Shown piece after piece: positions 8,968 to 44,037 of a stretch of DNA of 64,000 nucleotides. Within the stretch, counting starts at the first letter, position 1. Every line of letters begins with the position of its first letter. A model generated the notes under the pieces. It had not been told where the DNA came from and did no database searches. It saw only the letters and a program-made list of their open reading frames with translations. Origin of the DNA: Eledone cirrhosa (Eukaryota); assembly GCA_964016885.1 (NCBI GenBank), contig OZ024759.1, positions 32,550,001-32,614,000 of the forward strand. Direction: 5' to 3'. Both the position numbers and the translations under genes were made by a program.

Positions 8968-9063
8968 TTATATATATATAAGTTATTCCCGGTTGAATCG
9001 GGGGTTAACCACAGTAAGTAAGGTACTCAATACATAGCAGAGTATAAATGTTTTAATATAGAT

Positions 9064-9116
9064 GAGCTTCTACAGGACTAGAACTGTTTCATTCGTGAGA
9101 AATCATCAGGAAGCTC
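9064..9116 (-). ncRNA. type I hammerhead ribozyme, family A
   Basis: GAGCTTC-CTGATGA-TTTCTCACGAAT-GAAACAG-TTCTAGTC-CTGTA^GAAGCTC: 7 bp stem I, 4 bp stem III, GUA cleavage triplet; inverted core copy at 9117-9162. Confidence 0.9.
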
Positions 9117-9160
9117 CTGATGATTTCTCACGAATGAAACAGTTCTAGTCCTGTAGAAGC

Positions 9161-9378
9161 TCTTATATATATAAAAGCAAGTCGGTCTGTGTGTGTATAT
9201 GTATGTCTGTGTACAAATACTAGGCTCCTTTTAACTTTTGAAGTACTAGGCCGATTTGGCTAGCCCATTAGCTGACATAAGCTGACATGCACTCAGAAAT
9301 TGCTAGCTAAGCCATAAACGACCTTGAACAATTCAGGCTGTCATTCATTTCCCGAGCAACGCCGGGTACATCTGCTAG
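9161..9378 (+). mobile_element. non-autonomous Helitron
   Basis: 5' TC then TATATATATAAAAGC; 3' subterminal hairpin CCCGAGCAACGCCGGG followed by CTAG|T. Confidence 0.75.
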
Positions 9379-20064: not shown

Positions 20065-20348
20065 TATATATATATATAAATTAATAAAAACAAAGAAACA
20101 GTTCCTTATATTAAAAAATTCATCATGTTACGATCGTTTCTAGGATATATATGTGTGTGTTGGAATGTATATTATATAGATCTATGTAAAATTTTTACAA
20201 ACTATCAGATGAATATACATACCTACACATATATATGCTGTCTTCAGAAATATATATATAGGTAAGTTATTCCGGGTTGAATCGGAGGTAACCACAGTAA
20301 GTAAGGTACTCAATACATAGCAGAGTATAAAAGTTTTAATATAGATGA

Positions 20349-20475
20349 GATTCTACAGGACTAGAACTGTTTCATTCTTTAGAAATCATCAGGACTAGAA
20401 CTGTTTCATTCTTTAGAAATCATCAGGAATCCTGATGATTTCTAAAGAATGAAACAGTTCTAGTCCTGTAGAATC
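20349..20475. ncRNA. family A hammerhead cluster: duplicated core on minus plus inverted core on plus
   Basis: Three CTGATGATTTCTAAAGAATGAAACAG cores; stem I GATTC/GAATC. Confidence 0.8.
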
Positions 20476-20544
20476 TCATCTATATATATATATATATATA
20501 TACAATATATTAACAAATGGAAACTATATTTATAAAACCATATT

Positions 20545-23282: not shown

Positions 23283-24022
23283 AGATAGATAGATCGATTT
23301 CTTTATTTGCCACAAGGTCGCACAAGAAAATGGGACAATACAAAGATAGATAGATAGGTAGGTAGATAGACCAAAAGAGAAATAAAGGAAGCGGTGAAAG
23401 AGGGAGGAGGTAATGTATGTTTTAATAAACAATATATATATATAATCACGTATTTACATAAATACAAACATATACATATATATACACACTCACACACACA
23501 CTCACACACATATATATGTGTAGCCTACACACACACACATGTAGAACATGAAGAAGAAATGCAATAACGATGTCTCGAAGACATCATTATTATCATTAGC
23601 TTTGTCTTTCATAAAATAAAGTACCAGTAATGCATTGGAGTGTGTTTAATTCGACTTTCCCCCTCACCAAAACATTGCTGGCCTTGTGCCTCTAGTAGAA
23701 ACATATATATATATATATATATATATGCAGAGGTTATATTTAATTTGTTGGGATTCAACAAGCTTAAACATTTTTTTTTTAAATGGAACAGTTCTAGTCC
23801 TGTAGAAAACATTTTTATATTAAATTTGATATATATTTATTTATGTATGTATGTATGTATATATATATATATATATGTGTGTGTGTACTAAATATATATA
23901 TATATATATATTTATTTCTATACTTTAATTTATATATATATACTTAGTATACACACACACATATATATATATACATGCATACATACATACATAAATATAT
24001 ATCAAATTTAATATAGAAATGT

Positions 24023-24069
24023 TTTCTACAGGACTAGAACTGTTCCATTCGAAGGAAATCATCAGGAAA
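24023..24069 (-). ncRNA. family A hammerhead variant (GGAA in place of GAAA)
   Basis: TTTC-CTGATGA-TTTCCTTCGAAT-GGAACAG-TTCTAGTC-CTGTA^GAAA. Confidence 0.6.
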
Positions 24070-24856
24070 GCCTGATGTGGTTACCCCCCGATTGAACCCA
24101 AATATTACATAAATATATATATGTTTATATGTGCATGGATGCATATATAAACATATATATACACACATACATACATGCAATGCGTGTTTATGTATGTGTA
24201 TATACATATATGTATGTATGCATACATATGTGTATATACATGTGTGTGTATTTATCTATATATGTGTATGTACATATATGTATATGTGAATGTAAATATA
24301 TATATATATATAGGTATGTATATATATGTATGTATGTGTATGTAAATATATATATATATGTGTATTTACATATGTATATATGTATGTGTATGTACATATA
24401 TGTATGTATGTATATATGTATATATGTGTATGTACATATATGTATGTATGTATGTATATATGTATGTGTATGTACATATTGTATGTATGTATGTATGTGT
24501 ATGTACATATGTGTGTATGATTGTATATATGTATGTGTATGTACATACATATATGTATGATTGTATATATGTATGTGTATGTACATACATATATGTATGA
24601 TTGTATATATGTATGTGTATGTACATACATATATGTATGATTGTATATATGTATGTGTATGTACATACATATATGTATGATTGTATATATGTATGTGTAT
24701 GTACATACATATATGTATGTGTATATATGTATGTATGTATGTGTATATATATATATATATGTATATGTATGTATGTATGTGTATATGTGTGTGTGTGTGT
24801 GTACAAATATGTATTATAGTGCCAACATTTTGGTAAGAAATGTCTAATATATTTAC

Positions 24857-26603: not shown

Positions 26604-26866
26604 AACCTTCAATTAGTCTTCAATTTTATTATTATTACTAGTATATATATATATATATGAAATGGTCCTGGCTATTTTCCTATTACCCACTCTACTACCC
26701 AAAGTATTGAGTACTCTGGTACGTTATGGTCCACCTGGTTCCTTACCACACTTCCTTCGTTATATATATGTGTGTGTGTGTAAAAGATAAACAGAAATAA
26801 CAACACAATCGGTATAGTATATGGAAGGAATATATTAGGTTAACGCTTGATATAGCAAGAAGAGGG

Positions 26867-26902
26867 TCTTAACGTTTCGGACGCTAGTCCTTCATCAGAA
26901 GA
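26867..26902 (-). ncRNA. minimal type I hammerhead, family E
   Basis: TCTT-CTGATGA-AGGACTAGCGTCC-GAAACGTT^AAGA, palindromic AACGTT at stem III. Confidence 0.8.
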
Positions 26903-34344: not shown

Positions 34345-34402
<58 letters not shown>

Positions 34403-34485
34403 GTTATTCCGGGTTGAATCGGAGGTAACTACAGAAAGTAAGGTACTCAATACATTGCAGAGTATAAAAGTTTTAATATAGATGA

Positions 34486-34534
34486 GATTCTACAGGACTA
34501 GAACTGTTTCATTCTTTAGAAATCATCAGGAATC
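34486..34534 (-). ncRNA. type I hammerhead, family A
   Basis: GATTC-CTGATGA-TTTCTAAAGAAT-GAAACAG-TTCTAGTC-CTGTA^GAATC. Confidence 0.9.
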
Positions 34535-34537
34535 CCT

Positions 34538-34586
34538 GATTCCTGATGATTTCTAAAGAATGAAACAGTTCTAGTCCTGTAGAATC
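34538..34586 (+). ncRNA. type I hammerhead, family A (divergent partner)
   Basis: Identical intact motif on the plus strand, 3 nt from its mirror copy. Confidence 0.9.
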
Positions 34587-34671
34587 TCATCTATATTAAA
34601 ACTTATATATATATATATATTTAAATATATATATTTATATATAATTATATATATATATATATATATATATT

Positions 34672-38390: not shown

Positions 38391-38457
38391 TTTTATTATG
38401 CGCATTTCAAAAACAAACATCATCAAGCAATAATATTTGTGTTTTCATCAGATAAAA
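38391..38457 (-). ncRNA. type I hammerhead, family B
   Basis: Canonical family B motif, left arm of fold-back 38263-38670. Confidence 0.85.
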
Positions 38458-38565
38458 CAGGAGAACATGATATGAAGGCTAAAAAACACTTGTGGATAGT
38501 GCATATGTTGATTTAAAACTGCACTATGCACAAGTGTTTTTTAGCCTTCATATCATGTTCTCCTG

Positions 38566-38632
38566 TTTTATCTGATGAAAACACAAATATTATAGCTTGA
38601 TGATGTTTGTTTTTGAAATGCGCATAATAAAA
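38566..38632 (+). ncRNA. type I hammerhead, family B
   Basis: TTTTAT-CTGATGA-...-GAAA-TGCGCA-TA^ATAAAA, right arm of the fold-back. Confidence 0.85.
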
Positions 38633-43971: not shown

Positions 43972-44037
43972 TATTTTATTATATATATTTCAGAGGTACT
44001 GTGCTGTTTCATCAGTACGTCCTCATCAGATAAAATA
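43972..44037 (-). ncRNA. type I hammerhead, family C-related
   Basis: TATTTTAT-CTGATGA-GGACGTACTG..CAGTACCTCT-GAAA-TATATATA^ATAAAATA. Confidence 0.8.

What the first reader, a model, noticed from the sequence alone, without database searches (positions are those of the whole stretch)
8980..9162. Family A hammerheads: covarying stem I and the same fold-back apex in four loci
Seen: stem I is GAGCTTC/GAAGCTC (9064-9116), GATTC/GAATC (20349-20431, 34486-34586) and TTTC/GAAA (24023-24069). Loop II varies (TCAC, TAAA, CTTC) while TTC/GAA and stem III ACAG/CTGT stay fixed. At all four loci the element stops and inverts within a few nt of the 5' strand of stem I (CATCAGG-x-CCTGATG). At 34486-34586 this leaves two intact back-to-back ribozymes. 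Inference: pairing has been selected, and the folded ribozyme sets where reverse transcription stalls or snaps back. Either transcription direction could give cleavage or a long hairpin.
Basis: partly seen in the sequence, partly recalled or inferred. Interest (0 to 1): 0.75.

Follow-up and report, generated by a model that had tools for sequence, protein, structure and literature searches.

The report
Penelope copies stop at RNA start
These mirror-image ribozyme repeats are short copies of a Penelope-type jumping gene, and about half of its copies stop at the same spot, which is likely the capped start of the element's own RNA rather than a roadblock made by the folded ribozyme, a testable clue to what the ribozyme does for these elements.

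Summary
The four loci are real: 5'-truncated, head-to-head ends of a Hydra-type Penelope-like retrotransposon (713-aa RT/GIY-YIG frame in a full copy; 8,655 exact tail matches). The shared apex holds genome-wide: 54 of 100 tail-selected copies end within 20 nt around the base of stem I, about tenfold above flanking rates. Reverse transcriptase has already unwound the ribozyme there, only 2 of 24 second passes stop there, and another hammerhead family shows no hotspot (3 of 30). Long copies carry a TATA box about 30 nt upstream, predicting the transcription start exactly at the hotspot; an extra G at arm ends is suggestive only. Both arms come from one RNA, and simple snap-back does not explain them. 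Stem I covariation is thin: two compensatory changes across three lineages; the 24023 case is decay. The back-to-back pair folds as a 66-bp hairpin, not two ribozymes. Best reading (about 0.6): two enzymes run off the RNA's 5' end and the ends are joined by microhomology, sometimes through stem I. The scan already noted two-armed Penelope insertions on other DNA of this genome; my look-ups showed no note of the start-site explanation.

The parts
8982..9115 (-). Tail-bearing arm (-45..+88), AGCTTC/GAAGCT lineage; complete hammerhead, predicted cut between 9071 and 9070; outer end in (TA)n
9116..9165 (+). Tail-less inverted arm (about -40..+10); core intact, stem I only 2 bp
20266..20431 (-). 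Tail-bearing arm (-44..+88), AGATTC/GAATCT lineage, with a 34-nt tandem re-copy of the core region between 5-nt microhomologies
20430..20485 (+). Tail-less inverted arm (about -41..+15) ending in (TA)n
23782..23825 (+). Partial inverted duplicate of the 24006-24072 arm, sharing its private mutations and some flank
24006..24072 (-). Tail-less arm (-46..about +21) of the older GGCTTTC/GAAGCC lineage; 3' stem strand and GAAA motif mutated
24071..24099 (+). Remnant of the tail-bearing arm: about 7 nt of core joined directly to the last part of the tail
34402..34534 (-). Tail-bearing arm (-44..+88), complete hammerhead, outer end in (TA)n
34535..34537 (.). Apex insert between the two arms (loop of the 66-bp hairpin)
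34538..34609 (+). Tail-less inverted arm (-44..about +28), complete hammerhead with 5-bp stem I, outer end in (TA)n

Best explanation
These are two-armed, 5'-truncated insertions of a Hydra-type Penelope-like retrotransposon, and both arms likely stop at the base of stem I because that is the capped 5' end of the element's RNA. SHOWN: the element identity and layout (repeat with hammerhead and 88-nt tail directly followed by the ORF; unit about 5.97 kb); two fixed outer ends (+88, and about +15 or +28) in (TA)n; both arms share lineage variants; the end hotspot; a conserved TATA box about 30 nt upstream. INFERRED: the upstream repeat's TATA/initiator starts transcription at -45, so the ribozyme is the first thing in the RNA. 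Both ends of a cut (TA)n prime on the same RNA near its 5' end. On an uncut precursor both enzymes would run off the cap after 60-133 nt (a strong-stop product), and the free cDNA ends would be joined through whatever microhomology is near: the short palindrome inside the stem strand, core repeats, or the stem I complement. Such copies lack the TATA box and would be dead. Long and more-than-unit copies would come from RNA that the ribozyme has cut and closed (or from multimers), where -45 is internal.
For: Full copy L382/L053 with 713-aa ORF and Hydra motifs. Hotspot 54 of 100; tail-less arms peak at the same place (-46..-41 in 58 of 107). Arms share the loop II 6-mer in 54 of 77 loci against 10.8 in shuffles (max 21 of 5000); within the main lineage 36 of 43 against 12.7. 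TATA 8-mer in 92 of 92 native arms (at most 1 mismatch), first T at -74..-78 in 80; identical in five reference copies while the spacer behind it matches only 10-17 of 20-22 between lineages. First T at -75 puts +1 at -45 by the -30/-31 rule (PMC1779604 section 15); the main lineage has a full YYANWYY match there (consensus recalled). Extra non-native G at the boundary: 17 of 25, 18 of 27 against 6 of 61 at internal ends; where stem I would predict another base, G in 13 of 19 against 3 of 19. No stop on second pass or in the control family. In vitro, an anole element starts 85-92 nt after its ribozyme cut (my arithmetic from the text), primes on both strands and uses uncut RNA (PMC11167929).
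Against: No RNA 5'-end data was available. The G signal is confounded: where +7 is C both models predict G and 7 of 17 also match +8; 5 of the 13 discriminating Gs sit in a trinucleotide that could be a partner-arm remnant and 2 more are explained by a partner, leaving 6 of 12; my hand-curated count was 11 of 18 against 3 of 12 (Fisher p=0.07). Arms ending one base short are followed mostly by T (14 of 21). A simple linear template predicts that full-length copies also end at -45, yet 22 of 24 go past it, so a second template class must be assumed. Second-pass copies were chosen as young, long copies (survivor bias). Lineages whose TATA lies 2-3 nt further upstream seem, by eye, to end at the same base. 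Native arms were selected with a marker that includes the TATA region. The control family is single-armed and may move differently.
Confidence: 0.6

Rival explanations
1. Stem I capture in DNA: when a cDNA has copied -45, its last six bases pair with the +1..+6 complement in a displaced cDNA, which strips it from the RNA and ends synthesis. This is the nearest workable form of the first reader's idea.
For: 7 of 17 boundary arms continue with +7 and +8; complete stem-I joins in L041 and L280; in the bulged-stem lineage several ends lie at -46, the end of its 7-nt strand; two compensatory changes keep the strands complementary.
Against: Most junctions have both arms near -44, not one at +1; only 2 of 24 second passes stop, though displaced cDNA should be plentiful then; G rather than the stem-predicted base in 13 of 19; it does not explain the TATA spacing.
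Confidence: 0.2
2. Inheritance: read-through RNAs of existing short or hairpin copies are the templates, so one early truncation point is copied again and again.
For: Short copies are very numerous; simple apexes recur (five strings seen 3-5 times, one more 3 times); a hairpin RNA would give self-complementary cDNA ends.
Against: 38 distinct strings among 56 junctions; the hotspot occurs in all lineages; outer ends sit at element-defined points with unrelated flanks.
Confidence: 0.1
3. The folded RNA ribozyme stalls the enzyme and a single cDNA snaps back, or an antisense RNA self-primes (the latter proposed for head-to-head palindromes in PMC3846280).
For: Coincidence with stem I; arms share variants, as any one-template model predicts; a weak excess of ends at the cut itself (16 of 49 in 13 of 66 nt, p=0.02, post hoc).
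Against: Stop is on the far side of the structure; isolated motifs fold weakly (-6 to -12 kcal/mol, z above -1.1); tail-less arm longer in 33 of 107.
Confidence: 0.06
4. A splice acceptor at the base of stem I (as reported for Drosophila virilis Penelope) ends the match to the genomic element.
For: PMC4209133 maps the intron end to the 5' end of helix I; two lineages have a pyrimidine run and AG at -45/-44.
Against: The third lineage has GG there; no shared upstream exon appears in junctions.
Confidence: 0.04

Closest known systems
Hydra clade of Penelope-like elements (Craig et al. 2021, PMC8557442; passages, section 11, supplement hits and parts 52-53 read)
   Same: C-terminal GIY-YIG, RW[K/R], DKT, CxCX5C, CxxC and CxH motifs, hammerhead in the repeat, (TA)n targets, inverted 5'-truncated copy with one-sided tail.
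   Different: Not Hydra-1_Obim (different protein and ribozyme by eye); unit about 6 kb with a long microsatellite 3' region; tail about 60-75 nt instead of 30-40; a 5' end hotspot is not described in what I read.
Poseidon element of Anolis carolinensis (Frangieh et al. 2024, PMC11167929; parts 1-2 of 4 read)
   Same: Two internal start sites downstream of the ribozyme, the outer about 88 nt after the cut; both strands primed; repeat-ORF junction at the RNA's 5' part.
   Different: Other clade; ORF starts inside the ribozyme there, about 135 nt after the cut here; RNA 5' end and inversions not mapped in the parts read.
Adineta vaga Penelope elements (Arkhipova et al. 2013, PMC3846280; passages read)
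   Same: Head-to-head inverted repeats with palindromic junctions; TATA and initiator-like motifs in the repeat.
   Different: Explained there by antisense self-priming; no link made between junction position and start site in the passages seen.
PLE hammerheads (Cervera and de la Pena 2014, PMC4209133; parts 1-2 of 4 read)
   Same: Type I motif in the repeats; pairs on opposite strands already noted; palindromic loop III; extra base before stem II.
   Different: 4-bp stem III and 3-bp stem II with a U-U in place of G10.1-C11.1.
Minus-strand strong-stop DNA of LTR retroelements (recalled, no call)
   Same: Priming close to the RNA 5' end, short run-off product, need to cross to the 3' end.
   Different: Target-DNA primed, no tRNA or RNase H; product is inserted as a dead two-armed copy.

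Membership tests
Hydra-clade PLE | Single ORF, RT then C-terminal GIY-YIG | tested here: met
   713-aa ORF; RT motifs line up by eye with Hydra alignments; Pfam GIY-YIG at residues 598-621 is weak, E=0.012, below cut-off
Hydra-clade PLE | RWK and DKT motifs | tested here: met
   RWR and DKT read; definition
Hydra-clade PLE | CxCX5C linker; CxxC and CxH in the endonuclease | tested here: met
   all three read
Hydra-clade PLE | CCHH motif absent | tested here: inconclusive
   not seen by eye; no alignment to CCHH-bearing elements made
Hydra-clade PLE | Hammerhead in the repeat; insertion into (TA)n | tested here: met
   the older lineage often ends in (CA)n then (TA)n
Hydra-clade PLE | Generally under 3 kb (a tendency, not a definition) | tested here: not met
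   5,966 nt between ribozymes in L382, about half of it microsatellite
Hydra-clade PLE | Groups with Hydra in an RT tree | not tested
   reference proteins seen only as paper text
Type I hammerhead ribozyme | Conserved core, three stems, NUH cut site | tested here: met
   (95% of cells paired); core mutated at 24023
Type I hammerhead ribozyme | G10.1-C11.1 pair | tested here: not met
   U-U at that place
Type I hammerhead ribozyme | Self-cleavage at GUA | not testable with these tools
   needs an assay; weak excess of ends near the cut only
Non-LTR retrozyme | Non-coding tandem monomers each with a hammerhead | tested here: not met
   long copies run into an RT ORF
TATA/initiator promoter | TATA first T about 30 nt before a YR start | tested here: met
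   (sequence level only)
TATA/initiator promoter | Capped transcripts begin there | not testable with these tools
   no RNA 5'-end data available

The most novel reading that the evidence does not exclude
Penelope-like elements have a retrovirus-like strong-stop step: they prime next to the capped start of their RNA, the ribozyme is placed as the very first structure of the transcript, and its cut (removing a 45-nt capped leader and letting the ends join) is the switch between dead two-armed mini-copies and productive rolling-circle copies. By eye, published Hydra-1_Ajap and Hydra-2_Ajap also have an initiator-like motif at the base of stem I, so the layout may be clade-wide.
Probability: 0.35. 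Interest if true: 0.75.

Novelty: new member of a known kind. Interest (0 to 1): 0.52.

Why it matters
The job of the hammerhead in Penelope-like elements and the origin of their head-to-head repeats are stated as open in PMC8557442 and PMC11167929. This family gives base-level, testable predictions: where the RNA starts, why about two-thirds of first passes that reach that point end there, and why cutting would be needed for long copies although it is dispensable for short products in vitro. It also implies thousands of near-perfect hairpins that would yield double-stranded RNA rather than active ribozymes.

Tried and rejected
Rfam scan: only simple-repeat microRNA noise in the 150 rows shown. 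Window-wide inverted-repeat search was swamped by (TA)n. Genome-wide counts of apex types were not obtained, so all rates rest on samples (100 copies from the first 66 Mb of contig C1, plus 87 best-hit copies). RNA: no RNA holder listed; no reads were laid. First guess of Neptune clade rejected after reading the full ORF. Arms that looked like different lineages (L067, L070, L082) came from a biased search; concordance is the rule. The idea that short arms get a 'perfected' stem strand was dropped: long native copies with the perfect strand exist (L300, L302, L310). Tail-less arm calls were contaminated by reference flanks and redone. The minus-strand constrained fold for 20349 was placed on the duplicated core and is not used. 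Literature searches for a start-site or cap explanation found nothing on point; the library lacks most subscription papers, Schostak 2008 was not read, and bioRxiv supplements are closed.

Full report
Conventions. Positions are relative to the predicted GUA cut (0). The core starts at -39 and the stem I 5' strand is -45..-40. G000 is an unnamed 3.0-Gb genome; earlier AI notes call it octopus, which I did not test.

What the loci are. All four are ends of one repeat family. A 30-nt tail pattern has 8,655 exact matches in G000, and the reversed control has none. Long copies run upstream through about 420 nt of unique sequence and a long microsatellite into an RT plus GIY-YIG frame. L053 and L037 continue past the tail straight into the ORF; L382 holds a 713-aa ORF with ribozymes 5,966 nt apart. 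RWR, DKT, CxCX5C, CxxC and CxH motifs match the definition of the Hydra clade. The protein differs by eye from Hydra-1_Obim. No tree was made.

The apex. I mapped the 5' end of the tail-bearing arm in the first 100 listed matches, which were chosen only by the tail, and in 87 further tail-selected best hits (window copies and one duplicate left out). Of the 100, 22 end before -33, 54 end at -52..-33, and 24 go further. That is 3.5% per nt against 0.33% and 0.22% on either side. For all 187 the count is 105. Another 26 loci were read but not added to the counts. 107 of 187 have an inverted arm; its outer end is called at +28 in 51 and +15 in 23 (TA-like bases blur this), and its inner end peaks at -46..-41.

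One RNA, two cDNAs. Arms share the loop II 6-mer in 54 of 77 loci (shuffle mean 10.8). The tail-less arm reaches at least 6 nt further 5' in 33 of 107 (37 before removing L147, L277, L285, L313), the tail arm in 17, and 53 are within 5 nt. A single strand folding back cannot copy sequence it never held, so two cDNAs from one template, joined end to end, fit best (inference). Junctions are varied (38 strings in 56) and often use the short palindrome in the stem strand or carry short inserts copied from the core; the 34-nt re-copy at 20349 is of that kind. Earlier notes of this scan reached the two-armed reading on other families; the counts here are my own.

Not a stall on the folded ribozyme. 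Copying runs 3' to 5', so stem I is opened first. The isolated motifs fold weakly. In copies whose repeat lies upstream of the ORF (second pass; 25 of 39 loci after dropping 13 without the ORF start and L162, plus L053 and L037), 3 end before -33, 2 end in the zone and 22 pass it; first passes stop in 53 of 76 (p=1e-7; survivor bias applies). A second hammerhead family from window 26898 has 3 of 30 ends in the matching zone and no inverted arms.

The RNA start. All 92 native arms carry a TATA 8-mer, with the first T at -74..-78 in 80, at -69/-70 in 11 and at -82 in 1; it is identical in five reference copies while the spacer diverges (the selection marker included this region). The -30/-31 rule puts the start at -45, the first base of stem I, inside an initiator-like motif (consensus recalled). 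A copied cap would add G at -46, where native copies have C. Raw counts are 17 of 25 and 18 of 27 against 6 of 61 at internal ends (a noisy control). After removing two misassigned arms and five explained by partners or repeats, one search gives 11 of 18 against 3 of 12 (p=0.07). One search splits 36 boundary arms. Where +7 is C, 12 of 17 have G and 7 also match +8, which shows stem-I-templated extension. Where +7 is not C, 13 of 19 have G and 3 have the stem-predicted base; 6 of 12 remain G after removing possible partner remnants. So the G is suggestive, and stem I pairing in DNA is real but secondary. By eye, two of six published Hydra sequences (Hydra-1_Ajap, Hydra-2_Ajap) have an initiator-like motif at the stem I base, two have a TATA-like run 32-42 nt before the core (Hydra-1_Ajap, Hydra-2_Amil), and three show neither clearly; this is a lead, not a test.

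Covariation. Native stems are AGATTC/GAATCT, AGCTTC or AGCTCC/GAAGCT, and GGCTTTC (or GGCTTC)/GAAGCC. Two of six pairs change on both sides, each probably once; the count of such pairs is not above shuffles (154 of 500), although cell-level measures are. One sub-lineage carries a C-A mismatch.

Back-to-back ribozymes. At 34470-34610 the RNA is predicted to form a 66-bp hairpin (-107 kcal/mol, z=-24) against -29 or -27 for folds that keep a ribozyme; at 9064 it is -92/-90 against -16/-17. The antisense arm is transcribed first in either direction, so cleavage is unlikely in read-through RNA (inference).

Mechanism. Shown: anatomy, hotspot, one template, two starts, TATA spacing. Inferred: start at -45, run-off at the cap, microhomology joining. 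More speculative: ribozyme cutting and closure make the template for long copies, as proposed in PMC4209133; in vitro work found uncut RNA to be the main substrate and cutting unnecessary, which fits a short product primed near the 5' end.

Known and new. Ribozymes in these repeats, opposite-strand pairs, inverted truncated copies, tails, palindromic junctions and TATA/initiator motifs are in print. A 5' end hotspot tied to the start site was not found in my searches or in the scan's notes shown to me. Papers seen: PMC8557442 passages, section 11, supplement hits and two parts; PMC11167929 and PMC4209133 parts 1-2 of 4; PMC3846280 passages; PMC1779604 outline and section 15; bioRxiv 10.64898/2026.07.22.740005 part 1 of 5.

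Verdict. Interest 0.52; 0.75 if the strong-stop switch is confirmed.

Noticed in passing
window 26778-26898 (-): A second, unrelated hammerhead family (GC-rich stem II, palindromic minimal stem III) ending in (CA)n/(TA)n; single-armed, 5' ends dispersed; at least 40 close copies.
   Followed up: partly
window 43990-44029 (-): A third hammerhead-like core in an AT-rich setting; family not determined.
   Followed up: no
window 23782-23850 versus 23976-24048: Local inverted duplicate of a decayed arm plus flank, sharing private mutations.
   Followed up: partly
L153 (G000:C1:38770200-38780100) and L151: Two-armed insertions with arms of about 3.8 kb (97% identical in L153), each carrying about 2.7 kb of degenerate (TA/CA) repeat as part of the element's 3' region; the element may spread microsatellite arrays.
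   Followed up: partly
G000: 150 scored ORF matches at 94-100% identity, about 20 with the full 758-codon open frame: a very young, probably active lineage.
   Followed up: no
L039/L040 (G000:C1:2989228-2989603) and L047, L056: New copies inserted into the (TA)n or tail of earlier copies, giving tail-to-tail and nested clusters.
   Followed up: no
L344: Apex made of three tandem 12-nt repeats of core plus stem strand, suggesting repeated re-priming at the template end.
   Followed up: no
L034, L229-L245: A sub-lineage with a 4-5-nt shorter TATA spacer and a mismatched stem I, with several copies on contig C18; a natural test of whether ends follow the TATA box.
   Followed up: no
window 38452-38571: A long non-repeat hairpin picked up by the Rfam scan as a sub-threshold microRNA match; probably another inverted repeat element.
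   Followed up: no
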